UHGV virus genome: UHGV-1372088
Length of the DNA stretch: 64,000 bases
Direction: 5' to 3' (one strand)
From: a virus
The position numbers and the translations under genes are program-made. Numbering within the stretch: the stretch's first letter is position 1; every line of letters starts with the position of its first letter. Shown one piece after another: positions 1 to 51,000 of the stretch. Below the pieces are notes generated by a model, which was given only the letters and a program-made list of their open reading frames with translations, made no database searches and was not told the DNA's origin.

Positions 1-18
1 AAGATGGAGGTTGAATAG

Positions 19-357
19 ATGGCATTCATATCTCAACTGGGAACAATACCAAAGCGTAGCGGAAGAGTGCCAGGTTCTAAGTTCGTTTCGTTTAGAAAGA
101 CAAAATCTGGTGCTACTGGCGGGCTTATTACTAAGGACACTGGACTGCGCGGAACCAAAATAGACATTCAGATTGATGAGGATAATAAAACTATCCGCCT
201 CGGAAAGTTCGAAAACGGAGTGAAAGTAAATTCACGACAGGGGTCATTCAGTTGCTCGGTTAGCGTATTCAACGCTGTAGGCAAGACTAGAATATCCCTG
301 ACTGATGGCGGGGATGGGTGGTGGTACGGCAGTTATGCAGAAGGAGCCAACCAATGA
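19..357 (+). CDS. hypothetical protein (112 aa)
   Basis: Open frame in the supplied ORF track. No recognisable motifs. Co-oriented with downstream genes. Confidence 0.3.
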   Translation: MAFISQLGTIPKRSGRVPGSKFVSFRKTKSGATGGLITKDTGLRGTKIDIQIDEDNKTIRLGKFENGVKVNSRQGSFSCSVSVFNAVGKTRISLTDGGDGWWYGSYAEGANQ

Positions 358-659
358 CCAGCAAATTAACCAAAAAAGAGCAAGCCTGGGTTGATGAGAT
401 AAACGCGGGGCTGGCCCGTTGTCCATCCCCGAAGAAAATCGGCTTTTGCACTATCGGCGATCCAGTGATTGGCCTGTACGACCTCCGTCACGATGAAGAA
501 ATCTCGAACACCAACGATGATTTAATCCGCATAGTCGCTATGAAAGATCACCTCTTTCGCGAGCTCGTCAACGAATTGCGCGATGTGTCTCTCGAATACC
601 ATTCAACGCAGCAGCTGCGGGAGCGCATTGCCTCAACGCTACGGAAATATAGTCTGTAG
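354..659 (+). CDS. hypothetical protein (about 101 aa), start moved to internal Met (MTSKLTKK)
   Basis: ATGA overlap with the upstream ORF. No recognisable domain. Confidence 0.35.
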   Translation: MTSKLTKKEQAWVDEINAGLARCPSPKKIGFCTIGDPVIGLYDLRHDEEISNTNDDLIRIVAMKDHLFRELVNELRDVSLEYHSTQQLRERIASTLRKYSL

Positions 660-775
660 TCTGCCCTTTGTGATATGTATGTGAATACCTACAAAACTAA
701 AAGGCGTCGCTTTGATGCCTTTGCAAAAACAATATAATTACTAAACAAGTTAATTACTAAATAAGAGGAGTACAC

Positions 776-1075
776 ATGAAAGGTTTGGTTCGGATTTACA
801 ACTCCATCGACAGAGAGATTCTCCCCTACTTCTTGGTGGAGCTTGGCGGGACCACCGCGCCAGCTCTCACGGTTGACGAAAAGTCGCTCGTGTTGGAGAA
901 GATGGAAGCGAGAATTGCTGAAATTATCCCCGAACATTACTGCGATGGCATGAAGCCTGATGGTGACGGTGTTTTTTGGATTAATGGCGGTTGTCTGTAT
1001 GTCGAGGATGCGGAAGTGATCAGCGACAGCGATGCCACCCATCTTGAAAGGCTATTGTGTCTTTCTACTTTTTAA
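776..1075 (+). CDS. hypothetical protein (99 aa)
   Basis: Strong SD (AAGAGGAG) 7 nt upstream of the ATG at 776. A class-B-like promoter motif lies at 673-693. Confidence 0.45.
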   Translation: MKGLVRIYNSIDREILPYFLVELGGTTAPALTVDEKSLVLEKMEARIAEIIPEHYCDGMKPDGDGVFWINGGCLYVEDAEVISDSDATHLERLLCLSTF

Positions 1076-1267
1076 CATCATGTACGTAGACATTTACTTA
1101 GAAGGGTGTATTATGCCGCTCCTGTCCGTTATAGCGTCGCTTTTCCTTGTAGTGGATAGCGTCTTCATAGGCAGCTTCATAAATGCTCTTTTCCCGGTAA
1201 GTGGTCGAGTGATCGACATAGTTGTCGGTGTGTTTTTTTGCATTTCTATTTGGAAGCTGGCTGGCGC

Positions 1268-1606
1268 ATGAAAGGTTTATTGGCAGTATCGTTAATGTTG
1301 TTCTCGGCTCTCTCTATTGCGGATGAGCAAAGGGTTGAGCAGTGTGATATGAATATCCTGAAGATTGAAAATGGTGAGTTGGCACAAGCGGGTCACGCGA
1401 TGGGCCTGGCTATACTGACCTCAGACTCAACTCAGTTTTATGCGGTGATAGGTGATCGAATCATCAACTCCCCAATCCTAATGGATCACAAGGGTCAGAA
1501 GGCCGGTCAGAAAGCTGGCGCCGCATTCTTCATGCGAGACGGCAGCTTTGGCGTGATGTATGACGACTTTGGGTACGTGTTTGATAACTGCAAGAAGGTG
1601 GCGTGA
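1268..1606 (+). CDS. putative secreted protein with N-terminal signal peptide (MKGLLAVSLMLFSALSIADEQ)
   Basis: Internal Met followed by a hydrophobic h-region and an A-x-A-like cleavage site. Otherwise unknown. Confidence 0.4.
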   Translation: MKGLLAVSLMLFSALSIADEQRVEQCDMNILKIENGELAQAGHAMGLAILTSDSTQFYAVIGDRIINSPILMDHKGQKAGQKAGAAFFMRDGSFGVMYDDFGYVFDNCKKVA

Positions 1607-1818
1607 TGGATATCGGCAAAAGCATTGAGATGGAAAAGATAAGACCGTACTGGCGAGCCAAAGGCTTTACGCGCCCGGAGAACTTCTCCACCACGCTGGA
1701 GCGGGACGACTGCCAGATCGTGTATCGATACCGCTCATGGCAAATGATTGAGCATGGAGAGAAGAAAGCCAAGGTGAAGTCACACAGTCTCTACAATCTC
1801 TTGACCTCCATCACCTAA
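1603..1818 (+). CDS. hypothetical protein (71 aa)
   Basis: ATGA overlap with the upstream gene, which suggests translational coupling. Confidence 0.35.
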   Translation: MMDIGKSIEMEKIRPYWRAKGFTRPENFSTTLERDDCQIVYRYRSWQMIEHGEKKAKVKSHSLYNLLTSIT

Positions 1819-1837
1819 TTCTGACTTTGCCGCTTAC

Positions 1838-2070
1838 AGAGTAGATTGTCGCCTACAGAATAGATTGTACCGCTCACAGCATAGATAGTACCGTCTACAG
1901 CATAGATAAGAAGAAAGGCTCTCGGATAGAGAGCCTTTTTCGTCATCAGCACTTCATCCAGCCGCGCCACTTCACAGCTTTCAACTCAAAAAGTACCGCC
2001 TACAGAATAGATTTACCGCCTACAGAATAGATTATCGCCATTTTCACCGTCTACAGAATAGCTGCTACCG
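1838..2070. repeat. iteron cluster 1: about 7 copies of a 17-19 bp direct repeat (consensus tACCGCCTACAGAATAGAT)
   Basis: Direct repeats read in the sequence with roughly 20-22 bp periodicity. They are split by a bidirectional hairpin terminator at 1917-1941 (GGCTCTC...GAGAGCC plus T-run). Confidence 0.8.
1917..1941. terminator. bidirectional rho-independent terminator (A-run, hairpin, T-run)
   Basis: Stem GGCTCTC/GAGAGCC with a 5-nt loop, flanked by AAGAAA upstream and TTTTT downstream. Confidence 0.6.
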
Positions 2071-2071
2071 C

Positions 2072-3163
2072 CTACAGCGATCTGATTGTGGCGGCGATAG
2101 CATCTATCATCTTTAAGTTTTCTTCGGTGGGGTCACTCGCCAGCTCAGCAATACGCGCTCTAAGCCTTTCTTTTGCCAGACTTGTTTGATCTGTAGGCTT
2201 TTTGATCTCAGGCGGTATAGCATCCACTTCACTGACGGTCTTCAGCTTCGGATTGCGGTGATGGATGCTGAAAAACACTGACCGGTTTTTCTTTATTTCC
2301 GAGTAGGACAGGTAGCCGAGTTCCTCCAGCGTCTTCATTCCCTTCCTGACAAGCTGATTCTGTGAGTAGATGCTCTTGTTGCCGAAGTTCAGACGCGCTC
2401 TGAGACGCGCCAGGGATATGGGTATGGGGTTGGCTGGCAAGCTCTCAATAAACGTGTACAGCGCTTGTGCTGTCTCTTTACGGGGCAGCTTCTGAATGAC
2501 TTTCAGCTGCAACAGAACCTTATGGTCGAATTGGTACAGCTCTTTGAGACGCTTTTCGGCTTCAAACGAAATAATGCCAGTCTCTTCGTTGTAGTCGACG
2601 TTGTTCAGCAGATGAACCATCTTCATGACGATTTTGTTTGAGCCGTCTTCGTTCTTCGTCTCCAGAGTTTTCTGGAATGAGACGGTGGCGGACATAATTT
2701 TTCTGAGGCTGTTTAGCACCTTTTCTCGCAGCGTTTTTCTCAATCTTGACGAGGGATACCCGCAGTATTTGGCGAACTGCGTGATACTCATCTCCACGCG
2801 GCCAGACTCGTCGCCGAAATCAGCCAACCCTCGAACAATGCCGACCCACGTCTTGAAGTCTGAGTCCATATCCAGGCGGCTTCCTGTTATCTTTATGTCA
2901 GTGAAGCCCTCTGATTTGGCCGTTTCGAGCTGAATGAGCTCTTCAGTCGCGTCGATGACTGAACCTTTTTTGTTGTTGCGGTTGTTTGTCGACTTCAGTG
3001 TCGGCACGAAAAGACCGAGACGCATAAGCGCAATGGGTTGCACTGTATTCTGGTCGTTGGGCTTTAGGTTCCCTGTGTATTGATTTTGAACAATTTCTAA
3101 CTCTTCGATGAGATCGTCATCTATCTTGATGTTTTTCTTTGCTATTTTTTTTCTTTCTGCCAT
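2072..3163 (-). CDS. putative iteron-binding replication initiator (Rep-like), about 363 aa from MAERKK
   Basis: The only large minus-strand gene in this area. It is bracketed on both sides by arrays of the same 17-19 bp iteron and followed by a GATC cluster and DnaA box. The protein is basic/Lys-rich. The call rests on this plasmid-like context, not on sequence similarity. Confidence 0.5.
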   Translation of the reverse strand: MAERKKIAKKNIKIDDDLIEELEIVQNQYTGNLKPNDQNTVQPIALMRLGLFVPTLKSTNNRNNKKGSVIDATEELIQLETAKSEGFTDIKITGSRLDMDSDFKTWVGIVRGLADFGDESGRVEMSITQFAKYCGYPSSRLRKTLREKVLNSLRKIMSATVSFQKTLETKNEDGSNKIVMKMVHLLNNVDYNEETGIISFEAEKRLKELYQFDHKVLLQLKVIQKLPRKETAQALYTFIESLPANPIPISLARLRARLNFGNKSIYSQNQLVRKGMKTLEELGYLSYSEIKKNRSVFFSIHHRNPKLKTVSEVDAIPPEIKKPTDQTSLAKERLRARIAELASDPTEENLKMIDAIAATIRSL

Positions 3164-3185
3164 GTGGATATGCCTTGATAAATAT

Positions 3186-3292
3186 CGCCTACAGAATAGA
3201 TGAATCACCGCCTACAGAATAGACTTTGTCGCCCATAGTATAGCTTATATCGCCTACAGAATAGCTTTTACCGCTTACAGAATAGGTCGACA
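3186..3292. repeat. iteron cluster 2: about 5 copies of the same 17-19 bp repeat
   Basis: Repeats ATCGCCTACAGAATAGAT, TCACCGCCTACAGAATAGAC and similar read directly. They overlap the 5' end of the Rep-like gene, as expected for an autoregulated iteron replicon. Confidence 0.8.
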
Positions 3293-3329
3293 GGCGCTTA
3301 GACCAGACGTGGCGCGGCCTGTAGGGATT

Positions 3330-3410
3330 CCGGGATCTCTTTTGATCTCTGTGGGGATCTATTTGGGATCTAACTAATTGGATCTATCCGGTTGATATGT
3401 GGATAACTTC
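3330..3410. promoter_or_regulatory. origin-like element: 5 GATC sites within 51 bp followed by a perfect DnaA box (TGTGGATAA, i.e. TTATCCACA)
   Basis: GATC at 3334, 3344, 3356, 3367 and 3381. DnaA box at 3398-3406. This resembles oriC and the origins of iteron plasmids. Confidence 0.6.
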
Positions 3411-3508
3411 TCTCAGAAATATTTCACATCACGACTAGGCACATTCAACAAAGCCTAATCGAATTGTTTTATGATCTCCCTGGCCAACAAAAAACTAACG
3501 AGGCGACT

Positions 3509-4135
3509 ATGGGCGATTTGAAGCACCTCAAGTATGTGAAGCGTCTGGAGGATGGCTCTTTCTCCGTTATACCGACAAAGCAGGTCGAAACCCAAAAGGA
3601 TTTGTGCAGTCTGTGTGGCATTGAGTCTGTATGCCGCATTCGCATTGCTCGCGAGCGTATCAAGCAAGCTGGCGCGGAAGTATCAATGTCATCGTGCAAA
3701 CGCTACGTCCCTATCCTGACGTTCCGCAAACCGCACGTTGGACTGAATCTGACCTTCTTCAACACGATCCGCGCCGGGACTACATGGGCGTTTCGTCTGA
3801 ATAAGGGCAGCATCGTATGCCTGGCAGACGCAGAGACAGGAGAGCCTATCAGGTTCATGAGAGTGGAAAGCGTTCGCACCGGAGGTGTAGACAGTCTTCT
3901 CAACAAACACGCTCGATTCAACCATCTTGCCGTAGGTGGCAAAGGTGCGGAGTTCACGAGGAACTTCGTCAAGAAAGCCTATGGCCACTTCCTGAAGGAA
4001 GATGGGATGCTGACGGCGATATACCTGCGCAACATCAAATCTGACTTCGACTACCAGTACCACGACGCGACCGACGCTCTGTATATCGACGGAAAGCCAG
4101 CGCCTGATAACGTCATTTCCATCAGTAGATCCTGA
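3509..4135 (+). CDS. hypothetical protein, possible ASCH/PUA-like fold
   Basis: Start moved to MGDLKHLKY. Weak resemblance to the ASCH pattern (I-x-x-G-x-x-x-x-x-x-R around IRAGTTWAFR). The fold assignment is tentative. Confidence 0.35.
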   Translation: MGDLKHLKYVKRLEDGSFSVIPTKQVETQKDLCSLCGIESVCRIRIARERIKQAGAEVSMSSCKRYVPILTFRKPHVGLNLTFFNTIRAGTTWAFRLNKGSIVCLADAETGEPIRFMRVESVRTGGVDSLLNKHARFNHLAVGGKGAEFTRNFVKKAYGHFLKEDGMLTAIYLRNIKSDFDYQYHDATDALYIDGKPAPDNVISISRS

Positions 4136-4146
4136 TCACCCTCCCG

Positions 4147-4171
4147 CCGACTGCCTTAGTCGGTGTTTTTT
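4147..4171 (+). terminator. rho-independent terminator
   Basis: Stem CCGAC/GTCGG with a 7-nt loop, followed by TGTTTTTT. Confidence 0.6.
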
Positions 4172-4310
4172 GCCATGATGATATGTACTTGCTTACATAT
4201 CTTTTTAAAACGATAATCGCCCACCTGTAAGACACCAATCCGCCTTTCAATTCAGCTTTTACGCCGTATGCATATGCATATAATTAAGCGAAACAAAGGA
4301 GAAAATACAC

Positions 4311-5396
4311 ATGAGCAATCCTTTCGGACTGATCTCTGATCAGCACTACAACAACTGGAGCCAGTTCGGTCGAACCATCGGCCTCGACTACAACTCGCGG
4401 CTGAAAATCCAGCTTGAAACAACGCTTGAAGCAGCAAAAGCAATGAAGGCTGCGGGTTGCGAATATCTGTTTTGCGCAGGAGATACTTTCCACGTTCGCG
4501 GAACACTCCTTCCCTCTGTCCTGAACTACGTGACCGAAACGTACAAACAGATCATCAACGAGATTGGGCTGAAGGTCGTCATGCTGGCCGGCAACCACGA
4601 TTTAGAAACGAATGCGTCAGTCTACTCGTCAAATGCATCAAGCAGCCTGGCAGGCATTGGCGTTCACGTCGTCTGTGGCGCTCCATACAGCGTTAAGGTG
4701 GGCGATGCGACCATTCATCTGGTCAGCTGGCGCGAAAGCTACACAGAGCTTCTGGTGGACCTGAAACAAGTTCGCGCTGAAGCGGGTGATGGCATTCACG
4801 ATCTGATTATCCATGCGGGGATTAACAATGCGATCCCAACCATGCCAAACACCGGCATCGATGCAGAAGATCTGAAAGCGCTTGGATTCCGCAACGTCTA
4901 CGCCGGCCACTACCACAACCACCGCGAAATTCTGCCAGGCGTTATCTCTATCGGCGCACTGAACCACCAGCAATGGTCTGACGTGGGCAGCATCGCCGGC
5001 TACATGATTGTGAATGCAGACGGGACGTTTAAGCAGTACGAAACATCCTCGCCGAAATTCATCGCGCTGGAAGGCGAGATTAGCGAAGAGGATCTCAAAG
5101 GCAACTACGTCCGCTATCGCGCAGAAGTGGAATCGGACGAAGAGGCAGCGGAAATTCGCTCAGAGCTCGATGCGATTGGCGCGGCTGGTGTGGTCACTGC
5201 TTTTGTCCGCAAACGTGCGTTGGCGGTGTCTGGACCAAGTACGGCGGATACGCGGCGCATAGACAGTCTGGGTGAGTCCATCAGCTCATACTGCAAGGCG
5301 CAGCATGAAAAGACCAAAGACTTCGATCTGACCGCGCTGGATTCTCTGTGTAGAGAAATCCTGATGGAAGCCGAAAGCGCCGGAACATCGGATTGA
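4311..5396 (+). CDS. sbcD: SbcD/Mre11-like nuclease subunit (calcineurin-like metallophosphoesterase)
   Basis: Phosphoesterase motifs GDTFH, AGNHD and AGHYH. Lies directly upstream of an SbcC-like ATPase. Confidence 0.8.
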   Translation: MSNPFGLISDQHYNNWSQFGRTIGLDYNSRLKIQLETTLEAAKAMKAAGCEYLFCAGDTFHVRGTLLPSVLNYVTETYKQIINEIGLKVVMLAGNHDLETNASVYSSNASSSLAGIGVHVVCGAPYSVKVGDATIHLVSWRESYTELLVDLKQVRAEAGDGIHDLIIHAGINNAIPTMPNTGIDAEDLKALGFRNVYAGHYHNHREILPGVISIGALNHQQWSDVGSIAGYMIVNADGTFKQYETSSPKFIALEGEISEEDLKGNYVRYRAEVESDEEAAEIRSELDAIGAAGVVTAFVRKRALAVSGPSTADTRRIDSLGESISSYCKAQHEKTKDFDLTALDSLCREILMEAESAGTSD

Positions 5397-34187: not shown

Positions 34188-34880
34188 ATGGACATCGAAC
34201 TTAAATTTTTGACGGTTGGCGTCGGCTTGCTCCGGCCCAATCCGTGGAACACGAACACCGTTGGCGCGGCCAATTTTGAGAAGCTGAAAACCTCTATCGA
34301 CCGTCTGGGTTTCTTTAAGCCCGTGCTGGTTCGTGAAGTAGCCGGCGGCTTTTACGAAATCCTTGGTGGCGAACATCGCTGGCGAGCAGCTGTTGAACAA
34401 GGTCGCGAAACTATTGCCATTAACTCGGTGGGCAAGATTGATGACGTTCTGGCTAAGCAAATGTCGCTCGTTGACAACGAACGCTACGGCGAAGACGACG
34501 ATCTGGCACTGCAACGCCTAATCGAAGAGCTCCAGACCTCTCTGGATTACAACTTTTCTGAAATCATCCCAATCGACGACGAGCTGCTGGCCACCGTCTC
34601 TCGCGAAAGCGCTGCCGACTTCGAAAAACTCGAAGAGCTGCTGGCGGAATCTGACGAAGAGGAACTTCCGAAAGACCCGCGCGAGAAGAAAGAGCGTCTG
34701 GGTGTAGACCACCAGACCATGCGCTTCAAGGTCAGCTACGACGTGGCGGAGTCGGTCACCACCATCATCAACCGCATCATCGCGGAGCAGGAAATCAACA
34801 CAGGCAATGAGTCAGAAGACGCAGGGGAAGCGTTGGTGTGGCTTTGCGATCACTACAAGGACGTAACCGATGAAAAATGA
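34188..34880 (+). CDS. ParB/sulfiredoxin-like N-terminal domain protein
   Basis: LLRPNPWNTN...EILGGEHRWRAA matches the ParB-N box (GxxRxxA). Confidence 0.6.
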   Translation: MDIELKFLTVGVGLLRPNPWNTNTVGAANFEKLKTSIDRLGFFKPVLVREVAGGFYEILGGEHRWRAAVEQGRETIAINSVGKIDDVLAKQMSLVDNERYGEDDDLALQRLIEELQTSLDYNFSEIIPIDDELLATVSRESAADFEKLEELLAESDEEELPKDPREKKERLGVDHQTMRFKVSYDVAESVTTIINRIIAEQEINTGNESEDAGEALVWLCDHYKDVTDEK

Positions 34881-35541
34881 GTTCAAAATCGAGTATCTGG
34901 ACCCCAGGACACTCGTGCCTTACGAAGAAAACGCCAAAATCCACGATGAGCAGCAGATCGCGGACCTGGTTAAAGCCATTCAGAAGCGCGGGTTTGACCA
35001 GCCGATCACGGTAGATGCCAAAATGGTCATCATTACCGGCCACGGTCGTCGCGAGGCTGCAATTCAGGCCGGAATGAAGACGGTCCCGGTGATTGTCCGT
35101 CGCGATCTGTCCGAGGAAGAGACGCGAGCGAAGCGCCTTGAAGATAACCGGCTGGCCAGCACCGATTACGACTCCCTGAAGCTGCAACGTGAGCTGAAAG
35201 AGCTGATTGACGTCGAAATTGACGTATTCGGCTTCTCTGATCGTGAGCTTTCCGTGCTGGTCGAGGATATGACCCGCGATATGGACGTTGACAGCCTGGT
35301 CAGCGATCTGGCAACCGAATCTGAGCGCCAGCGCGAAGAGCACGAAGAGATTAGCTCGACGGTGGCCGCCGGCACTGCGCGTATTACCGACGTTCTGGGC
35401 TTCAAAGAGATCCCCATGAGCGAGGCAATCACTGTCGGAGACCTGATGGCCTACATGGAGGACCAGACCGGTGAGTTCGGCGTCAGCGCCTTCATTGCTT
35501 TTGCTCGCCAGATCAGCGCCGAGATGAATGCCGATGAGTAA
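34870..35541 (+). CDS. second ParB-like domain protein
   Basis: LVPYEENAKIH...IITGHGRREAA, a ParB-N-like box. Overlaps the upstream gene. Confidence 0.5.
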   Translation: MKNEFKIEYLDPRTLVPYEENAKIHDEQQIADLVKAIQKRGFDQPITVDAKMVIITGHGRREAAIQAGMKTVPVIVRRDLSEEETRAKRLEDNRLASTDYDSLKLQRELKELIDVEIDVFGFSDRELSVLVEDMTRDMDVDSLVSDLATESERQREEHEEISSTVAAGTARITDVLGFKEIPMSEAITVGDLMAYMEDQTGEFGVSAFIAFARQISAEMNADE

Positions 35542-36178
35542 TTACAACATCAACGTCGCATTCAAGACGCGCGTCAACAAGACCGTTCGAACGCTGGAGA
35601 TCGCCGAGTCCTTTGGGCTCGGCCTCGACGAAAAAGAGTGGGTTCTCTACGACAACCTGGAGCTGAACATCGACCAGGGCGACGTCGTGTACGTTACCGG
35701 TCAGTCCGGCTCCGGCAAATCCGTTGTTCTGCGTGAGCTGCAAAAGCTGATGGCGGCGGAAGGCAAGTCTGTTGCATCCATCGACCAGTTTACCTTTGAG
35801 GACGACAAGAACGTCATCGACCAGATCGGGAAGACCACCAGCGATGCGCTGGGGCTGCTTTCTATGGCTGGGCTGAATGATGCCTATCTGTTCGTCAGAA
35901 AGCCGTCAGAGATGTCTGATGGCCAGAAATACCGTCTCAAAATCGCAAAGCTGATTGAGTCCGGCGCTGATGTCTGGGTGGCCGATGAATTTGGCGCGGT
36001 TCTGGATCGTGTGACGGCGCAGGTTGTGGCATCAAACCTTCAACGAGCGGCAAGGAAAGTGGGGGCAACCGTCATTGTGGCGACGACCCACGAGGATTTG
36101 GTCAATGCGCTGCGGCCGTCAGTGCAGATCACCAAGCACTTCAAGGAACGAGTGAAGGTGGACTATGAAGTTAAGTGA
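35528..36178 (+). CDS. small ABC-type ATPase
   Basis: Walker A GQSGSGKS. ABC signature-like MSDGQKYRL. Walker B VWVADEFGAVLD. H-loop VATTHE. Confidence 0.55.
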   Translation: MPMSNYNINVAFKTRVNKTVRTLEIAESFGLGLDEKEWVLYDNLELNIDQGDVVYVTGQSGSGKSVVLRELQKLMAAEGKSVASIDQFTFEDDKNVIDQIGKTTSDALGLLSMAGLNDAYLFVRKPSEMSDGQKYRLKIAKLIESGADVWVADEFGAVLDRVTAQVVASNLQRAARKVGATVIVATTHEDLVNALRPSVQITKHFKERVKVDYEVK

Positions 36179-38008: not shown

Positions 38009-38641
38009 ATGAGTACCGAAGTAAAGAAAAAACTCACCCCAGCTCAATGGGTTGAAGTTGAAGTTAAATGGAAATCAGGTGAATACACCCTTTCGGCTCT
38101 GGAAGAAGAGTATGGGCTCAGAACCGAGACTTTCTCTCGTTACTTCAAGAAGAAAGGCATTTCCAAAGGCTCAGACTCTGTTTCGGACATGATCCGTGAG
38201 TCTTTGAAGTCCGATTCGGAACAGCGAGCGCTGGCGCGAGCAAAGCTGGTGGAGGACCGGAGAGACAGCTTCGATAAAATCTCCAACCAGATCGCCGGTT
38301 TGACCATGAAAGAGATTCACGCGGCCAGGAGTGAAAGTCGGCCGCTTTCGGTGATCGAGGATAACCTAAAGTCACTTCAACGCGCCTCAGCGATCATCGG
38401 CAAATGTTTCGACATCTCCAGTCGCGCTTTAGGTCTGGAACGAGAAGAAATGGCAGGCGATGAAATTCCGAATCTGGTCTTCGGTGAATTGACGCCGACG
38501 CAGGTTCAAGAGCTCAGGAAGATGGACGAAGGTAATTCTCTGTCTGACGATCTTGAAGAGCTCGAAGAGCTTGAGAAATCGCTCGGCGCAATCCCGGATG
38601 AGGACGACGAGAGTGAGGACGACGAGGAAGGGGAAGAGTAA
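38009..38641 (+). CDS. terminase small subunit (putative)
   Basis: N-terminal HTH-like region. Highly acidic C-terminal tail. Lies immediately upstream of TerL with an ATGG-type overlap. Confidence 0.55.
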   Translation: MSTEVKKKLTPAQWVEVEVKWKSGEYTLSALEEEYGLRTETFSRYFKKKGISKGSDSVSDMIRESLKSDSEQRALARAKLVEDRRDSFDKISNQIAGLTMKEIHAARSESRPLSVIEDNLKSLQRASAIIGKCFDISSRALGLEREEMAGDEIPNLVFGELTPTQVQELRKMDEGNSLSDDLEELEELEKSLGAIPDEDDESEDDEEGEE

Positions 38642-39897
38642 TGGCCCTTCCAAGTTCGTTAAGCCTGATTCAGCTGCATTCCGGGCAGATGAAGGTATTC
38701 AAGGCGCCGCACCGCTTTAAGGTGGTGTGTGCTGGTCGTCGTTGGGGGAAGTCGATGCTTTCCATCTCGATGATCATGCGAGCGGCGGCCAAGGACCGTA
38801 AGCAGCGAGTGTGGTACATCGCGCCATCCTACCAGATGGCGAGGCAGATCTTGTGGGACGCGCTGAATGAGGCGATACCGCGCAAGTGGATTATGAAAAA
38901 GAACGACACGACGATGACCATCGTGTTGAGGAACGGTAGCGAGATCTCGCTGAAGGGGGCGGATAAGCCCGACTCCCTGCGCGGTGTTGCATTGAACTTC
39001 GTCGTTCTCGATGAGTTTCAGGATATGAAGCCGGACACCTGGTACAAGGTACTTCGTCCGACGCTGTCCTCAACTCGCGGCGGTGCGCTCATCATCGGTA
39101 CGCCGAAAGGCTTCTCTGAGTTCCACAAGCTGTGGCAGATCGGTCAGGACGAGACGATGCAAGCGCGGGGCCAGTGGAAAAGCTGGCAGTTCGTGACGGC
39201 GGACTCTCCGTTCGTACCAGAGAGCGAAGTTGAAGCCGCGAAAAACGATATGGACCCGAAATCGTTCGCGCAGGAATACCTGGCGTCGTTCGAGAATATG
39301 TCCGGTCGTGTTTATTATCCGTTTGACCGTGATATCCACGTTAAGCCGCTGGCGTTCGACAGTCGTCTTCCAGTCTGGGTAGGTCAGGACTTCAACATCG
39401 ACCCAATGTCGTCTGTGATATTGCAGCCGCAGCCGAACGGGGATTTGTGGGCGATTGATGAGATCGTGCTGTTCTCTTCGAACACGGCAGAAGTCTGCGA
39501 TGAGCTGGAAAGACGCTACTGGCGGCAGAAGTCGCAAATTACCGTCTTCCCTGACCCGGCCGGTGCATATCGCCAGCACGCTCGCGGTGAATCGGATACC
39601 GACATTTTCAAAGAGAAAGGCTTTTTGAGAATCGATCACCCGAAAAAGCACCCGCCTATCGCTGACCGTGTGAACGCCGTAAACCGTCGTCTGATGACGG
39701 CATCCGGGGAGGTACGACTGTATATTGACCCGAAATGTAAGCACCTGATTGAGTCTCTGGAGAAGGTGATTTACAAGCCTGGCAGCCGTGATATCGATAA
39801 AACAGGCAATGTGGAGCACAGCGCCGACGCCCTGGGCTATCCGGTACACCGTAGATACCCGGTGAAAAATCGTGTTATTGTTGGCGGCAGTAGATAA
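38641..39897 (+). CDS. terminase large subunit
   Basis: Walker A VVCAGRRWGKS. Walker B VVLDEFQDM. C-terminal nuclease-like acidic residues. Sits upstream of the portal gene. Confidence 0.8.
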   Translation: MALPSSLSLIQLHSGQMKVFKAPHRFKVVCAGRRWGKSMLSISMIMRAAAKDRKQRVWYIAPSYQMARQILWDALNEAIPRKWIMKKNDTTMTIVLRNGSEISLKGADKPDSLRGVALNFVVLDEFQDMKPDTWYKVLRPTLSSTRGGALIIGTPKGFSEFHKLWQIGQDETMQARGQWKSWQFVTADSPFVPESEVEAAKNDMDPKSFAQEYLASFENMSGRVYYPFDRDIHVKPLAFDSRLPVWVGQDFNIDPMSSVILQPQPNGDLWAIDEIVLFSSNTAEVCDELERRYWRQKSQITVFPDPAGAYRQHARGESDTDIFKEKGFLRIDHPKKHPPIADRVNAVNRRLMTASGEVRLYIDPKCKHLIESLEKVIYKPGSRDIDKTGNVEHSADALGYPVHRRYPVKNRVIVGGSR

Positions 39898-39929: not shown

Positions 39930-41483
39930 ATGGGATTAACAAGTAAGGATATTCAGGCACTGGTGAAGCGCCGACACCCTGAATATGAATTGAGAAAGGC
40001 ACATTGGGACTTCATCGCCGCCACCTACGTCGGTGGCCGCGAGTGGTTCAAGCACAATATCTTCCGCTACTTCAAAGAAGGTGACGAAGAGTATCGCGAG
40101 CGCGTTGAACGTGCTTACCGCTTCAACCATTCGCGCGAAGTGGTCAATCTGATCAACAAATACCTCTTCAAAGAGGGGATCACCCGAACCGAGGATGATG
40201 CGCCGGAGGCAATTAAAAACTTCTGGCTGAAGGCAACACGCCAGGGCGTCACCATTGACGAGTTTATGGCGGAGCTGGACCTGCAATCATCCATCTACGG
40301 GCGGATTTGGATTGTTGTCGACAGCACATTGTCTGGTGACGTTGAGTCCGTGGCCGACCAGAAGAAGCAGAATGGTCGGGCATACGCTTATTGGGTTTCT
40401 CCGCAGCAGTTGCTCGACTGCGCGTATGACGACGACGGGCAGCTTATCTGGGCGCTTATCTGCGAAGTGGCGCGTGATGATGCAGATCCTTTCACATCGT
40501 CCGGCAAAGAGTTCCTGCGTTATCGTCTCTGGACCCGCGAGCAGTGGTATCTTTTCCGTGAGGAAGGTAAACGCGCTGGTGGATTGCCTAAAGTCGTTCT
40601 GGACGGCAGTGGCGATCATAATCTTGGCGTCGTGCCGGTCTTCCCGCTGGATTGTTCCGGGCAGGGTGAATCGCCGTACTTCAGCCCATCGCTGATTGAC
40701 GACATTGCGTATCTGGACCGGGCGGTAGCGAACTATCTGTCCAACCTTGATGCGATCATCCAGGACCAGACCTTCTCGCAGCTGGCCATACCGGTTCAGG
40801 CGATGTTGCCAGGCGATGAGAATCACGCAAAGGTGATGGAGATGGGGACCAAGCGCGTTTTCTCCTTTGACGGTGAGAATGGGGCGCAGCCGTTCTATCT
40901 GTCGCCAGATCCGAAGCAAGCCAGCATCATCATTCAGGCCATTCAGCAGATCATCAACGAAATCTACCATTCGGTGGGCGTCGCAGGTGAGCGCACCAAG
41001 CAGGATAATGCCGCCGGCATAGACAACTCTTCTGGCGCGGCGAAGATGTACGACTTCCAGCGCGTGAACTCGTTGCTGGTGGCGAAATCTGGCCGCCTGA
41101 AGCTGGCAGAAGCCCGTATGATTGAACTGGCGGCGAAATGGATGGGTGTTGGTGACATTGACACGGAACGGCTGCTGACATACCCGGAGAGCTTCGACAT
41201 TCGCGGTCTGACGGACGAGTTTGGCGTGGCGACCAATCTCCAGCTGCTGGGCGCACCGGATTCAGCCCGTCGTTACCAGATGGAGCTGTTGCTCGATAAG
41301 GTCTTCCCGAATCTGACCAAAGAGCGAAAAGCGGAAATCGACAGCGACCTGAAGAAGTACCCGCCGCAGCCGGTTGAGCCAGCACCAGCTGGCGGAGCGA
41401 AGAAGCCCGAGCCGACTACCTCTGCCACCAAGGAAGAGAGCGACAAGAAGGCCGAAAACGATAAGGTTCGCAAGAAAGATTAA
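39930..41483 (+). CDS. portal protein
   Basis: 517 aa, directly after TerL. Lys/Glu-rich C-terminal tail. Its position and size are typical of a portal. Confidence 0.7.
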   Translation: MGLTSKDIQALVKRRHPEYELRKAHWDFIAATYVGGREWFKHNIFRYFKEGDEEYRERVERAYRFNHSREVVNLINKYLFKEGITRTEDDAPEAIKNFWLKATRQGVTIDEFMAELDLQSSIYGRIWIVVDSTLSGDVESVADQKKQNGRAYAYWVSPQQLLDCAYDDDGQLIWALICEVARDDADPFTSSGKEFLRYRLWTREQWYLFREEGKRAGGLPKVVLDGSGDHNLGVVPVFPLDCSGQGESPYFSPSLIDDIAYLDRAVANYLSNLDAIIQDQTFSQLAIPVQAMLPGDENHAKVMEMGTKRVFSFDGENGAQPFYLSPDPKQASIIIQAIQQIINEIYHSVGVAGERTKQDNAAGIDNSSGAAKMYDFQRVNSLLVAKSGRLKLAEARMIELAAKWMGVGDIDTERLLTYPESFDIRGLTDEFGVATNLQLLGAPDSARRYQMELLLDKVFPNLTKERKAEIDSDLKKYPPQPVEPAPAGGAKKPEPTTSATKEESDKKAENDKVRKKD

Positions 41484-42575: not shown

Positions 42576-43448
42576 ATGCCATTATTGCGGGAAGAAGCTG
42601 AAAAGCTGAGTAATAACGAACTTGAGCAGGGCGTTATCGAAACCATTATCGATCGCGAAGACCTGTTTGCGGTTCTGCCGTTCTTCAAAGTGAACAGCAA
42701 AGCCTATCTGTACAACCGTGAAGCAACCCTGTCCGAAGCCGGTTTCATCGACGTGAACGATGTGATCGCTGAAGGCGCAGCAACCTTCACCGAGCACACC
42801 GCGAAGCTGCGTATCATGGCTGGCGATGTGGACGTTGATAAGTTCCTGGCCTCCACTATGGCGGACACCAATAGCCAGATGGCTATTCAGATTTCTTCCA
42901 AAGTTAAAGGTCTGGCCCGCGCGTTCCGTCGTAACCTGATTCTGGGTGACGAAACCAAAGATCCGAAATCCTTCAATGGTATCGGCAAGCTGATGGCTGC
43001 TGACCAGGCGATCGCCGCCAATGCGTCCATGACCTTCTCCATGTTCGATGAACTGGTGGATGCGGTTAAAGACCTGGGCGCCGACTGTCTGATGATGCGC
43101 TCCGAGCACCTTCGTGCGTACCGCGCTCTGCTGCGTACCGTGAACGTCGGCCCGTCCGAAATCATGGTGGCCAACTTCGGTCGTCCGATGCTGACCCACA
43201 ACGGCGTTCCGATCATCATCAACGACTTCATCCCGGTTGTCGACGGCGCTGCTTCCATCTACGGTCTGCACATGTCCGAAGAGAACGGCCTGTCCGGTAT
43301 CTACGGCGGTGATAACGCTGGTATCGTTGTTGAGAATATCGGCACCGTTCAGAACAAAGACGCCATCCGTACCCGTGTTAAATGGTACTGCGGTCTGGTG
43401 AACAAGCACGACAAAGCGATCGCGGCGCTGACCGGCGTTAAGATTTAA
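42576..43448 (+). CDS. major capsid protein
   Basis: 290 aa, immediately after the scaffold-like gene, with SD AAGGA. A terminator follows. Confidence 0.65.
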   Translation: MPLLREEAEKLSNNELEQGVIETIIDREDLFAVLPFFKVNSKAYLYNREATLSEAGFIDVNDVIAEGAATFTEHTAKLRIMAGDVDVDKFLASTMADTNSQMAIQISSKVKGLARAFRRNLILGDETKDPKSFNGIGKLMAADQAIAANASMTFSMFDELVDAVKDLGADCLMMRSEHLRAYRALLRTVNVGPSEIMVANFGRPMLTHNGVPIIINDFIPVVDGAASIYGLHMSEENGLSGIYGGDNAGIVVENIGTVQNKDAIRTRVKWYCGLVNKHDKAIAALTGVKI

Positions 43449-48046: not shown

Positions 48047-51000
48047 ATGTCCGACAATATCGTAGATTTTAAGCTGATCCTCAATGATAAGGAGTTCGAG
48101 GTATCAGCTAAAAATGCCGGGAAGTTACTCAAACAGCTGAGTGTGGATGCGGGTTTAGCGTCCAAGAAAATCTCCAACCTTGATGTTTCTGTCAACTCTC
48201 TGACGCGAAACATCAAAATCTTCACCGTAGCAGTGGGTAAAGCGGCCTCGGAACTCCAGGATTTGGGAGTCGGGGCCGAACTCGCTGGCAATGCGCTTCG
48301 TGATATTCGTACTCACATTGCCGCAATCAGTCGCAGCTTAACAGTATTCAACGACCGCGTTGGCAAAACCACAACCGCACTGAAAGGTATGGCGAGTGAG
48401 CTGCGCAAGGTTCAGTCTGAACTTTCCGACTTCAGTGATTATGCCAACCACGCAGGCAAGTCTACGCGCGACCTGACCGCGAACGTAGACGATCTCAATA
48501 AGAAAGCCTCCACCACAAATCGTCGCTTAAACAATACGACAAAGGCACTGGCCGGCTGGAAGGACTCTGGTGACAAGGCGAAGGACGCGCTGAAAGAAAT
48601 CATCAGCCAGATGGATACGCTCATTGACCGTCAGAAAGAGCTGAAGGGTTTGGGACGTGCTGATGTTGGCGGGCCAGGTCGCGGCGGTAGTGGCGGTAGT
48701 GGCGGTCGTGGCGGTAGTGGCGGCGGTCGCCACCATAGCAGTTCTTTTGGCGGCGTAAGAGGGACCATCTTTGCTTTAGGCGAAGTGGGTGATGCAGCCC
48801 GAAACGTCAGAGATATGCTGTTTGGCTGGCAAGCGCCCATCATCGAGGCAGCAGCTGAAATGCAGAAGATGCAGATGCTTCTGCAAGGTATAAACAAGGA
48901 TGCAGCCGATCCATTTGCCGCAGCGGCGAAGGATATGGACTACATCATCGCCACCGCTAAAAGTGCGCCTTTTGCGATTGGCGAGTTGACGGGCTCATTC
49001 GTCAAATTCAAGTCGGCAGGATTAGATCCGACGAATGGCTCGTGGAAGACGCTGATCGACTCCGTTGCCCGATTCGGCGGCAGTAGTGAAACGCTTGACC
49101 GCGCAGCCGTCGCTATCCAGCAGATGGCAGGTAAAGGCGTCATCTCGATGGAAGAGCTGCGTCAGCAGCTGGGTGAGGCTGTTCCTACCGCAATGAAGGC
49201 GATGGCGGACGGCATGGGCGTTACTGTAGCCGAGCTTACAAAGCAGATCTCTACCGGCACAGTGAATGCTCAGGAAGGTTTGCGTCTCATGTTCGTTGGT
49301 ATGGATGCCATGAACCGTGGCGCCGCGAAGAGCATGATGGTCACCTACATTGGCGCCCTGGCTCAGATGAAGACCGCCTTCATTCAGTTCTCTAAGACGG
49401 TTGGCGATTCCGGCTATCTCGAAGCTATGTCAAAGAGTCTCAACGAGATCACCGCGTTGATGAATAGCACAGATGGCAGGATGTTTGCCGCGTCTCTGGG
49501 CCAAAACCTGGCGACCGCGATCACGTCTCTGACGTCTATGGCCAGGTGGCTTGTCCAGAATCGAGAGCTGATTATCAATCTCGGCGCAGCTATTGCGGCG
49601 TTCGTAGGCTTCAGGTTGCTTCGCTCTGGGATCTTGGAGGTGATTAGCGTCGGCAGCCAGATGGTGTCTGTGCTCGGTAAAAGCGTAACCGGATTACAGG
49701 CTCCATTTAATCTCCTGTCAGCCTCAGTGACCAGATTTAGTCGAGCGTCAAGGCTTGGACTTGGGACTATCCCAGCTCTCCTGTTCTCGATCAGGGGTGG
49801 TCTGACGGCAGTTAAGGTGGCGTTTGCTTCTCTGTCTGCGTTCATCGTCTCCAACCCGATTGGGGCCGCATTGCTTGCGATATCGACTGCCGTAGGCGTT
49901 ATCGTTTGGGCGATGGGGAAGCTGAGAGATAAGACCGCGCAGACCGTAGAAGAGCTCAAGAAGATGCCTGAGGCGATGACGCAGATCCAGCGCACTCAGA
50001 TTCTGCTCGATGTCAAGAAGCGAAACGCGGAGATTGAGCGTGACGAGAATCTTCTTCAGTCAATCAAATCAGGCAAGCTCTCGGCGGACGCTCTGCCGGC
50101 AGACATCGCAACGGGCAGACAGCTGACTGTTAAAGATGTCGAAAACAGAGTTAAAACAAACAAGGCGATAAATGGCGACTACACTGGCCTGGTCACGAAA
50201 AGCGACGAGATAAAGGCCAAGGAGACGGCATCAGGCGTAACTAAGGCGGTGTTCGAAGACATTGAGAAGCGGCTCAATGTCGGTATGGCTAAATTCGCGG
50301 CAGGTCAGATGCGAGAGAATGAGGCCAAAAGGATCGCTTTGGACGCCGACAAATCTCTCTCCAAGGAAGAGAAGGATAAGCGCCGGGATGAGATAAACCG
50401 CTCAGAGGCAAACGCTCAAGCCGACCTCTACAAGAAGGCCGCTGACGAGATGGAAGCGCGGGTTAAAAGTGTCGCCACACAGGTTAAAAACTTGGATGAG
50501 GCGCTGAGTAAACCTGGCCTGAGTGAAGATCAGAGAAAAATCCTGACCGCTCAAAAGTACGGTTACGCGAGCAACTATGAAGAGTCGAAGCAGCAGCTCG
50601 ACGACATGCGCAACAAGGAAAAAGATACCCGAAACAGTCGCCACGGTATCCCTGACGCCAGCGGCGAATATTCCAGCGCATCCGGGGCTAAAGCCGATCA
50701 CCAGGTTTACGTAGCCAGAGTTAAGAACGACTTCAAGAACGGCGCAACGAGCATCATCGGCGAAGATGGCCAGATCGCCAAGGATGTTTTGGGTAATGAC
50801 ATCGAGGGCATTAACCAGTTCAGAGCCAACGAGACTATCATCTCCAAATACGGCTCAAACGTAACCGGGGAACAGCGTAAGAAAGCCGAGGAAGCGTTGA
50901 CGGCTGCCATTTTGCGAGACACCCAGATCCGCACAAAGGCAGCCGAAACGGCAAGCAAGAAAGAAGAAAGTGCTAACAACAAGGCGCAAAAGGCGGCCGA

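What the first reader, a model, noticed from the sequence alone, without database searches (positions are those of the whole stretch)
1838..3410. Plasmid-type iteron replicon (iterons, rep, iterons, GATC cluster, DnaA box), suggesting a phage-plasmid lifestyle
About 12 copies of a 17-19 bp iteron flank a minus-strand basic protein gene. Five GATC sites within 51 bp and a consensus DnaA box (TTATCCACA) follow. This is the architecture of theta-replicating iteron plasmids (F, P1, pSC101-type), not of a lytic phage origin. The same element also carries ParB-like genes and a full set of dNTP-synthesis genes, as described for SSU5/pHCM2-like phage-plasmids, together with complete virion genes. The element may therefore persist as a low-copy plasmid prophage.
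Basis: partly seen in the sequence, partly recalled or inferred. Interest (0 to 1): 0.65.

Follow-up and report, generated by a model that had tools for sequence, protein, structure and literature searches.

The report
P1-type plasmid replicon in phage-plasmid
This stretch is a complete plasmid replication unit laid out like the plasmid replicon of phage P1, sitting in a Klebsiella virus that lives as a plasmid; it is a known kind of system, but this version has a rare, untyped initiator and repeat sequence.

Summary
Twelve direct 20-bp iterons plus one half-iteron flank a minus-strand repA (2072-3163). Beyond the upstream iterons lie five GATC sites in 51 bp and the only perfect DnaA box in the 64-kb window.

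The layout matches the annotated P1 plasmid replicon part for part: DnaA box, Dam sites, five iterons at about 21-bp spacing, repA, then a second iteron array. RepA is 44% identical to P1 RepA over nearly all of that protein (E 2e-81). The non-iteron origin core aligns to P1 oriR at DNA level, including a 19/19 identical GC-rich spacer. The predicted fold matches RctB, RepE and pi initiators.

The window also carries terminase, portal, capsid and tape-measure genes. It is 99.8% identical here to a circular 110-kb K. pneumoniae plasmid, LR890700.1. The phage-plasmid reading is therefore supported.

What is new is modest. Three plasmids with 98-99% identical backbones carry a different allele at this locus (RepA 61%, iteron core differing at 4 of 17 positions). 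The divergence has sharp edges at 1821/1822 and about 3377. The window's allele has no replicon type in the MOB-suite typing PLSDB gives, matches no NCBI-named protein above 64%, and is rare.

Verdict: a new member of a known kind. Function and incompatibility are inferred, not tested.

The parts
1828..1908 (+). Distal downstream iteron sub-array: 4 direct iterons starting at 1828, 1847, 1868 and 1889. Inferred copy-control (incA-like) sites.
   Evidence: The copies at 1868 and 1889 carry CAGCATAGAT, intermediate between the window core and the sister-plasmid core.
1914..1938 (.). GC-rich hairpin with T-runs on both strands. It looks like a bidirectional terminator for repA (minus strand) and for the convergent plus-strand small ORFs, and it splits the downstream iterons into two groups.
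   Evidence: terminator-like site, 10-pair stem; I1.
1994..2077 (+). Proximal downstream iteron sub-array: 3 full iterons starting at 1994, 2014 and 2045, plus a half-iteron at 2066-2077 that overlaps the repA stop codon.
2072..3163 (-). repA: a 363-aa basic initiator of the P1 RepA / RepFIB-like Rep_3 family.
   Evidence: Pfam Rep3_N E 3e-9. phrog_775 E 9e-118. 44% identity to P1 RepA, E 2e-81. Predicted fold matches RctB, RepE and pi.
3163..3171 (-). One-mismatch DnaA box (ATATCCACA) abutting the repA ATG.
   Evidence: The same position carries nTATCCACA in P1, the sister plasmid and loci L013, L015 and L016.
3183..3288 (+). Origin iterons (incC-like): 5 direct copies with start-to-start spacing of 23, 21, 21 and 21 bp. 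The repA promoter is presumed to lie among them.
   Evidence: P1 incC has 5 copies spaced 22, 21, 21 and 21 bp. Only weak sigma-70 candidates were found.
3303..3321 (+). GC-rich spacer CCAGACGTGGCGCGGCCTG, identical 19/19 to the same position of P1 oriR.
3334..3384 (.). Five GATC (Dam) sites in short repeats within a stretch that is about 65% A+T. Inferred unwinding and methylation-sensing element.
   Evidence: Aligns with the 5 annotated Dam sites of P1 oriR.
3398..3406 (-). Consensus DnaA box TTATCCACA at the outer end of the origin.
   Evidence: It corresponds to the second of the two tandem P1 boxes; the first has decayed here.

Best explanation
Window 1828-3406 is the plasmid-prophage replicon of an SSU5-supergroup Klebsiella phage-plasmid, and it is built like the P1 oriR-repA-incA replicon.

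Proposed mechanism, inferred by homology to P1. RepA monomers bind the five same-face iterons at 3183-3288. Host DnaA binds the box at 3398-3406 and perhaps the weaker box at 3163-3171. Together they open the A+T-rich GATC repeat stretch at 3334-3384 so that the host helicase can load for theta replication. Dam methylation and hemimethylation of the five GATC sites would limit re-firing after each round.

Copy number would be held low in three ways: RepA repressing its own promoter among the origin iterons; titration of RepA by the downstream iterons at 1828-2077; and RepA-mediated pairing (handcuffing) of those iterons with the origin.

Shown here: all sequence parts, their order, their homology to P1, and the existence of a circular plasmid form in public data. 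Inferred: every biochemical step.

The repA-plus-iteron block is a separate specificity allele that has been exchanged on an otherwise 98-99% identical backbone. The part of the origin that contacts host factors stays conserved.
For: The part-for-part layout matches the annotated P1 record against the window.

The origin core aligns to P1 oriR: the GC-rich spacer is 19/19 identical, and ATTGGATCTATCC and TGTGGATAA are shared.

RepA is 44% identical to P1 RepA over P1 residues 21-283 of 286, 49% to SSU5 RepA, and 61% to the RepA of Klebsiella and E. coli phage-plasmids. It has the Rep3_N domain. The best matches of its predicted fold are iteron initiators: RctB 7.6e-8, RepE 2.6e-5, pi 9e-3.

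The same architecture, 5 upstream plus about 8-9 or more downstream iterons, is seen in pJN2-26, pCAV1099-111 and SSU5. It is also seen in contigs whose RepA is 83-85% identical and which keep the CAGAATAGAT iteron core.

The region is 99.8% identical to circular plasmid LR890700.1.

The annotation of sister plasmid CP037443.1, read for all but about 1.1 kb of the record, lists no other initiator.

Virion genes are present in the window.

The cassette edges are sharp. Identity to the sister plasmid is 97% over 582-1821 and 100% from about 3377 onward. In between, RepA is 61% identical and the iteron core differs at 4 of 17 positions.
Against: There are no functional data.

No convincing sigma-70 promoter was found among the origin iterons: the standard scan found none, and the best relaxed candidates match 7 of 12 positions.

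There is one consensus DnaA box where P1 has a tandem pair.

All downstream iterons point the same way and are split by a terminator hairpin, whereas P1 incA has 6 in one orientation and 3 in the other. The control geometry may therefore differ.

No par operon is adjacent as it is in P1.

The structure model is of only moderate confidence (mean pLDDT 70.6), and TM-scores to solved initiators are 0.4-0.5 when normalised by target length.
Confidence: 0.87

Rival explanations
1. The locus is mainly the origin for lytic (vegetative) phage replication, not for plasmid maintenance.
For: The element is a phage with its own replication genes. The sister plasmid encodes a DNA polymerase III alpha subunit, a primase and a DnaB-like helicase. 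Iteron origins with an initiator gene also occur in lytic modules of other phages (general knowledge).
Against: The homology is specifically to P1 RepA and oriR, which the P1 record annotates as the origin of plasmid replication. The same RepA family is found in at least 5,000 plasmid records, at least 2,739 of them predicted conjugative, mostly annotated RepB family or RepFIB. A second control array of iterons and a Dam-site cluster are features of copy-number-limited replication. Near-identical DNA is assembled as a circular plasmid.
Confidence: 0.06
2. The replicon is a decaying or inactive remnant, and the element is maintained by another origin or by integration.
For: PLSDB lists no MOB-suite replicon type for LR890700.1. 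One origin iteron (3227) is degenerate, with 5 mismatches in 17. One of the two tandem DnaA boxes has decayed.
Against: repA is intact and its family-invariant residues are conserved. Eleven of the twelve iterons are within 3 mismatches of the core. The architecture is preserved in independent contigs whose RepA is 83-99% identical. The annotation of the sister plasmid, read for all but about 1.1 kb, lists no second initiator.
Confidence: 0.05
3. The repeats are only operator sites for a DNA-binding transcription regulator, with no origin function.
For: In this family the origin iterons also act as operators for autorepression (note on repA in the P1 record).
Against: The protein is a full-length homologue of an experimentally established initiator. 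The repeats are joined to a DnaA box and Dam-site module that is homologous to P1 oriR.
Confidence: 0.02

Closest known systems
Phage P1 plasmid replicon (oriR with incC, repA, incA; IncY)
   Same: The order and orientation of the parts are the same: DnaA box, 5 Dam GATC sites, GC-rich spacer, 5 iterons at about 21-bp spacing, repA, and a downstream iteron array abutting the repA stop. RepA is 44% identical over essentially the whole P1 protein. The GC-rich spacer is 19/19 identical, and the GATC repeats and DnaA box align. Both belong to a phage that lives as a plasmid.
   Different: The iteron sequences differ: P1 has TCCCTCCAGCACACAT, the window has ACCGCCTACAGAATAGAT. The window has 7 downstream iterons plus a half-iteron, all direct and split by a terminator hairpin; P1 has 9, with 6 in one orientation and 3 in the other. 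The window has one consensus DnaA box at the outer end, not two. RepA is 363 aa against 286 aa, with an unmatched N-terminal stretch of about 30 aa and a C-terminal two-helix tail of about 55 aa. No parAB operon lies downstream. The phage backbone is unrelated, siphovirus-like SSU5 type rather than P1 type.
Replicons of SSU5-supergroup phage-plasmids of Klebsiella, E. coli and Salmonella (SSU5, pJN2-26, pCAV1099-111; IncpKPHS1 plasmids; PMC7969092, PMC6735626)
   Same: The gene neighbourhood is the same: small convergent ORFs on one side, and a 208-aa ORF of unknown function followed by SbcCD-like genes on the other. The arrangement of 5 upstream and about 8-9 or more downstream iterons is the same. 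The RepA C-terminal tail is shared. The backbone is 98-99% identical to CP037443.1, CP110757.1 and CP056499.1.
   Different: RepA is only 61% identical to RepA of the three sister plasmids and of the pJN2-26-type phage-plasmids, and 49% to SSU5 RepA. The iteron core differs from the sister consensus at 4 of 17 positions: CCGCCTACAGAATAGAT against CCGCTGACAGCATACAT. Megablast finds no match for the rep-iteron block in these plasmids. PLSDB lists no MOB-suite replicon type for LR890700.1, whereas it lists rep_cluster_2470 or rep_cluster_711 for the relatives.
F plasmid RepE, R6K pi, pPS10 RepA and Vibrio RctB (structurally characterised iteron initiators)
   Same: The predicted two-winged-helix fold matches these proteins best. 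The general iteron logic is shared.
   Different: phmmer finds no sequence match to any PDB chain at E below 0.01. The origin layouts of F oriS, pSC101 and R6K were not compared here; from general knowledge they lack the P1-type Dam-site cluster. The relationship is at superfamily level only.

Membership tests
P1 RepA / RepFIB-like iteron replicon | Initiator homologous to P1 RepA over its full length, with a Rep_3 WH1 domain | tested here: met
   BLASTP gives 44% identity over P1 residues 21-283 of 286, E 2e-81. Pfam PF01051 scores 37.8 bits against a cut-off of 22.4. phrog_775 E 9e-118.
P1 RepA / RepFIB-like iteron replicon | Two winged-helix domains (WH1 and WH2), as in RepE and pi | tested here: met
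   AlphaFold2 model, mean pLDDT 70.6, core residues 70-305 mostly 75-90. The top Foldseek PDB matches are RctB domains 2-3, RepE, a Rep-DUE complex and pi. Confidence is moderate, with TM-scores of 0.4-0.5 normalised by target length.
P1 RepA / RepFIB-like iteron replicon | Five direct iterons at about two helical turns immediately upstream of repA (incC/origin array) | tested here: met
   3183-3288, with spacing 23, 21, 21 and 21 bp. P1 spacing is 22, 21, 21 and 21 bp.
P1 RepA / RepFIB-like iteron replicon | Second array of the same iterons downstream of repA (incA-type control locus) | tested here: met
   Seven full iterons and one half-iteron at 1828-2077. Number, orientation and spacing differ from P1. 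Control function was not tested.
P1 RepA / RepFIB-like iteron replicon | Cluster of Dam GATC repeats and DnaA box(es) at the outer end of the origin | tested here: met
   Five GATC sites at 3334-3384 and a perfect DnaA box at 3398-3406. The stretch aligns with P1 oriR.
P1 RepA / RepFIB-like iteron replicon | repA promoter embedded in the origin iterons (autorepression) | tested here: inconclusive
   The standard scan found no sigma-70 match. The best relaxed candidates match 7 of 12 positions and lie within the iterons.
P1 RepA / RepFIB-like iteron replicon | Autonomous low-copy theta replication that depends on RepA, DnaA, Dam and DnaK/DnaJ/GrpE | not testable with these tools
   Needs cloning and host mutants.
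P1 plasmid maintenance region (P1 proper, IncY) | parAB-parS operon directly downstream of incA, and P1 iteron sequence | tested here: not met
   Downstream of the iterons are convergent small ORFs, phrog_804 and phrog_2077, of unknown function. The iteron sequence differs. The window is therefore not IncY or P1 itself.
IncpKPHS1 group / MOB-suite rep_cluster_2470 replicon type (SSU5-like Klebsiella plasmids) | For IncpKPHS1, repA more than 96% identical in nucleotides to the reference (PMC6735626). For rep_cluster_2470, membership of the MOB-suite cluster assigned to the sister plasmids. | tested here: not met
   Megablast of 1800-3450 finds no rep match except in LR890700.1. RepA is 61% identical to RepA of the rep_cluster_2470 sister plasmid. 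PLSDB lists no MOB-suite replicon type for LR890700.1. pKPHS1 itself was not fetched; no annotated plasmid RepA seen in PLSDB exceeds 61%.
SSU5-supergroup phage-plasmid | Complete siphovirus-type virion module together with a plasmid replicon on one circular extrachromosomal element | tested here: met
   Terminase, portal, major head and tape-measure genes hit PHROGs. The sister plasmid annotation lists the full head and tail module. LR890700.1 is a circular plasmid record. RepA is 49% identical to SSU5 RepA. Virion production was not tested.

The most novel reading that the evidence does not exclude
The repA-plus-iteron block (1822 to about 3376) may be an exchangeable specificity cassette. 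Recombination at the edge of the distal iteron array and inside the conserved GATC/DnaA origin core would have put a new initiator-iteron pair onto a 98-99% identical phage-plasmid backbone. That would create a new incompatibility type, so that near-identical phage-plasmids can share one cell or escape iteron-based interference. PLSDB lists no MOB-suite replicon type for this allele, so plasmid typing with that scheme may miss it.
Probability: 0.5. Interest if true: 0.4.

Novelty: new member of a known kind. Interest (0 to 1): 0.3.

Why it matters
SSU5-like phage-plasmids are common in clinical Klebsiella, and phage-plasmids can carry resistance genes (PMC9600943, PMC7969092).

The replicon type decides which of these elements can coexist in one cell and whether typing tools detect them. 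PLSDB lists no MOB-suite replicon type for this allele, and no NCBI-named protein matches it closely.

The sharp-edged replacement on a near-identical backbone is a clear example of replicon swapping. Something similar was noted for P1-like elements, where IncY and p0111 replicases sit at the same position (PMC7969092).

The mechanism itself adds nothing beyond the P1 paradigm.

Tried and rejected
- Megablast of 1800-3450 and of 3450-28000 against the phage collection found no backbone or replicon match. Close relatives are deposited as plasmids, not as phages.
- phmmer of RepA against PDB sequences found nothing at E below 0.01. Fold comparison was needed instead.
- NCBIfam has no family hit for RepA.
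- Rfam found no RNA family in 1400-3700, so there is no sign of antisense-RNA control.
- The standard sigma-70 scan found no promoter in 1700-3600. A relaxed scan gave only weak candidates.
- I tested whether the 208-aa ORF next to the origin is a homologue of P1 UpfA. It is not.
- The scan of GTDB species-representative genomes found no RepA above 52% identity.
- I considered that the GATC cluster alone proves an origin. It does not: chance is about 4% per window. Its weight comes from its position and its homology to P1.
- I considered filing the replicon under IncpKPHS1 or rep_cluster_2470. Rejected, because RepA is only 61% identical to the rep_cluster_2470 sister and the iterons differ.
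- I considered that the motif GTGGCGCGGC, which recurs inverted at 1961-1970, is functional. It is absent from the sister plasmid, so this is unresolved and probably chance.
Full report
**Observation**

Reading 1-5000 and running the repeat finder shows 12 direct copies of a 20-nt unit with consensus TACCGCCTACAGAATAGATT. All are in the same orientation, in three groups:
- four at 1828-1908;
- three at 1994-2064;
- five at 3183-3288.

A thirteenth, half-length copy (TACCGCCTACAG, 2066-2077) overlaps the stop codon of the gene between the groups.

The 16-nt core with up to three mismatches occurs 12 times in the whole 64-kb window, 11 of them here. The expectation is 0.38, and none of 100 shuffles reached 12.

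The gene is on the minus strand at 2072-3163. It encodes 363 aa from an ATG and has pI 9.45.

Beyond the five upstream iterons there are, in order:
- a GC-rich 19-mer at 3303-3321;
- five GATC sites at 3334, 3344, 3356, 3367 and 3381;
- the only perfect DnaA box of the window, TTATCCACA on the minus strand at 3398-3406.

A one-mismatch box, ATATCCACA at 3163-3171, touches the repA start codon.

The GATC cluster alone is only modestly improbable, about 4% per 64 kb given 299 sites. It is, however, the only cluster of four or more in the window. The true span is 1828-3406.

**What it is**

The protein has the Rep3_N (WH1) domain above Pfam's cut-off and matches phrog_775 at E 9e-118.

tblastn against phage records gives these identities:
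- 44% to P1 and P7 RepA;
- 49% to SSU5 RepA;
- 61% to the RepA of Klebsiella and E. coli phage-plasmids (vB_KpnS_p4727, ST13-OXA48phi12.3, pJN2-26, PhiR41_1).

The direct comparison with P1 RepA covers P1 residues 21-283 of 286, with E 2e-81.

Sequence search against PDB chains found nothing. An AlphaFold2 model built on 27 homologues has mean pLDDT 70.6, with the core mostly 75-90. Its best PDB matches are iteron initiators with two winged-helix domains: RctB domains 2-3, RepE, a Rep-DUE complex, pi, and the pPS10 RepA WH1 domain.

**Comparison with P1**

The P1 record annotates, on one strand and in this order:
- tandem DnaA boxes;
- five Dam sites;
- five incC iterons spaced 22, 21, 21 and 21 bp, with the repA promoter inside them;
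- repA;
- nine incA iterons, the last abutting the end of repA.

The window has the same parts in the same order and orientation. Its origin iterons are spaced 23, 21, 21 and 21 bp.

The non-iteron core is homologous at DNA level. CCAGACGTGGCGCGGCCTG is identical 19/19. The GATC repeats align. ATTGGATCTATCC and TGTGGATAA are shared.

The iterons themselves occupy the same positions but differ in sequence: P1 has TCCCTCCAGCACACAT and the window has ACCGCCTACAGAATAGAT.

Differences from P1:
- one consensus outer DnaA box instead of two, the first having decayed;
- seven and a half downstream iterons, all direct and split by a terminator-like hairpin at 1914-1938, against nine in P1 with 6 in one orientation and 3 in the other;
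- a longer RepA, with an N-terminal stretch of about 30 aa that P1 RepA does not match and a two-helix C-terminal tail of about 55 aa that is shared with many RepFIB-like proteins;
- no par operon downstream, only convergent small ORFs of unknown function.

**Context**

The region is 99.8% identical to LR890700.1, a circular 110,279-bp K. pneumoniae plasmid with no annotation. PLSDB lists no MOB-suite replicon type for it.

Window 3450-28000 is 98.4-98.9% identical to the Klebsiella plasmids CP037443.1, CP110757.1 and CP056499.1. Their annotation lists terminase, portal, major capsid, tape measure and tail proteins, two ParB-like proteins, nrdAB and thymidylate synthase.

PHROGs confirm the following in the window itself:
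- terminase at 38641-39897;
- portal at 39930-41483;
- major head protein at 42576-43448;
- tape-measure protein at 48047-52672;
- two ParB-like proteins at 34188-35541.

The ParB-like proteins fall below NCBIfam's ParB cut-off. They are followed by an ABC-type ATPase, not a ParA.

The half of the sister plasmid that lies outside the window encodes a Dam-family methylase, a DNA polymerase III alpha subunit, a primase, a helicase, a RelE-type toxin-antitoxin pair, an integrase and a 'plasmid stability protein'. The CP037443.1 annotation, read for all but about 1.1 kb of the record, lists no second initiator.

The literature places such elements in the SSU5 supergroup of phage-plasmids (PMC7969092). 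It also describes the IncpKPHS1 group of SSU5-like Klebsiella plasmids as iteron-regulated (PMC6735626). The phage-plasmid interpretation is therefore supported by sequence and by the deposited plasmid form. Virion production is not shown.

**The one less ordinary point**

Against sister plasmid CP037443.1, identity runs as follows:
- 97% over window 582-1821;
- 100% from about 3377 onward;
- divergent in between, at 50-75% DNA identity and 61% RepA identity.

The left edge, at 1821/1822, is the start of the distal iteron array. The right edge lies between the fourth and fifth GATC.

The sister's iteron core is CCGCTGACAGCATACAT. It differs from the window's CCGCCTACAGAATAGAT at 4 of 17 positions.

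Two distal iterons of the window, at 1868 and 1889, are intermediate between the two types.

The relatives pJN2-26 and pCAV1099-111 carry the sister-type core, with five upstream and about 8 to 9 or more downstream copies. SSU5 has yet another core.

In the 5.8-billion-protein collection the window's RepA has one 99% cluster (21 members, found only in Logan assemblies), two clusters at 83-85%, and one partial protein at 92% over about half the length. Identity then drops to 64% or less, where the NCBI-named RepB-family proteins begin.

The 83-85% contigs keep the CAGAATAGAT core and the same layout, including the DnaA boxes and five GATC sites. No species-representative genome in GTDB has a RepA above 52%.

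The window therefore carries a rare initiator-iteron lineage, with no MOB-suite replicon type listed in PLSDB, that replaced the common one on the same backbone. The module that contacts host factors, the last GATC site and the DnaA box, is kept.

A comparable pair of alternative replicases at one position is reported for P1-like elements, IncY and p0111 (PMC7969092).

**Mechanism, inferred from P1 and general iteron biology**

This paragraph rests on the P1 record notes, on PMC6090056 for chaperones, titration, handcuffing and autorepression, and on established P1 literature recalled from memory.

- RepA monomers bind the five origin iterons.
- DnaA binds its box or boxes.
- The A+T-rich GATC repeats melt.
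- The host helicase loads and theta replication starts.
- Dam methylation and sequestration of the hemimethylated sites would time re-initiation.
- The downstream iterons would titrate RepA and pair with the origin to hold the copy number low.
- RepA would repress its own promoter.

The promoter could not be located with confidence. No antisense-RNA family was found.

**Rivals**

- A lytic-phase origin. This is unlikely because the homology is to the plasmid origin of P1 and to thousands of plasmid replicons.
- An inactive relic. This is unlikely because the ORF is intact, the iterons are conserved, the architecture is preserved in independent contigs, and no other initiator is annotated in the sister plasmid.
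- Operator sites only. This is unlikely given the attached module homologous to P1 oriR.

**Verdict**

The closest known system is the P1 oriR-repA-incA replicon, as found in SSU5-supergroup phage-plasmids. This is a new member of that kind, with a distinct initiator-iteron allele, and not a new mechanism. Interest is modest. It lies in the cassette exchange and in the likely new incompatibility type, both of which can be tested with simple cloning and incompatibility assays.

Noticed in passing
L007 (MZ779062.1, Klebsiella phage pJN2-26), locus 1294-1313 and 2564-2583: The record labels two 20-bp direct repeats flanking repA as phage attachment sites attR and attL. They coincide with RepA iterons of the upstream and downstream arrays, so this is probably a mis-annotation.
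   Followed up: partly
L006 (SSU5, JQ965645.1), locus 765-984 and 1140-1396: SSU5 appears to have its DnaA-like box, GATC cluster and iteron set duplicated 375 bp apart upstream of repA (families D9, D1 and D7). That would make two tandem origin cores.
   Followed up: no
window 34188-36178: Two adjacent proteins with the ParB N-terminal domain (phrog_723, phrog_930) score below NCBIfam's ParB cut-off. They are followed by an ABC-type ATPase rather than a ParA. Whether this trio is a partition system is unclear.
   Followed up: partly
window 3509-4135: A 208-aa ORF of unknown function (phrog_2105) sits directly outside the DnaA box. An ORF of similar size (208-215 aa) sits in the same place in the sister plasmid, SSU5, pJN2-26 and pCAV1099-111. 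It is not homologous to P1 UpfA, which occupies that position in P1.
   Followed up: partly
window 1-581: The two leftmost small ORFs have no counterpart within 5 kb of repA in sister plasmid CP037443.1. ORFs of matching sizes (101 and 112 aa) occupy the corresponding positions in contig L015, which carries the same rep allele. This may be a second variable spot next to the replicon.
   Followed up: no
window 1961-1970 and 3309-3318: The GC-rich motif GTGGCGCGGC of the origin core recurs, inverted, between the two downstream iteron sub-arrays (I9). It is absent at that place in the sister plasmid and may be chance.
   Followed up: partly
L012 (CP037443.1 2500-50000), outside the part matching the window: The sister plasmid encodes its own Dam-family methylase, a type I restriction-modification system, a RelE-type toxin-antitoxin pair, an integrase, a DNA polymerase III alpha subunit, a primase and a DnaB-like helicase. 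An element-encoded Dam could bear on the GATC-dependent origin.
   Followed up: no
window 1868-1908: Two distal iterons carry CAGCATAGAT, a hybrid between the window-type core (CAGAATAGAT) and the sister-type core (CAGCATACAT). This could be a trace of the recombination or of shared ancestry.
   Followed up: partly
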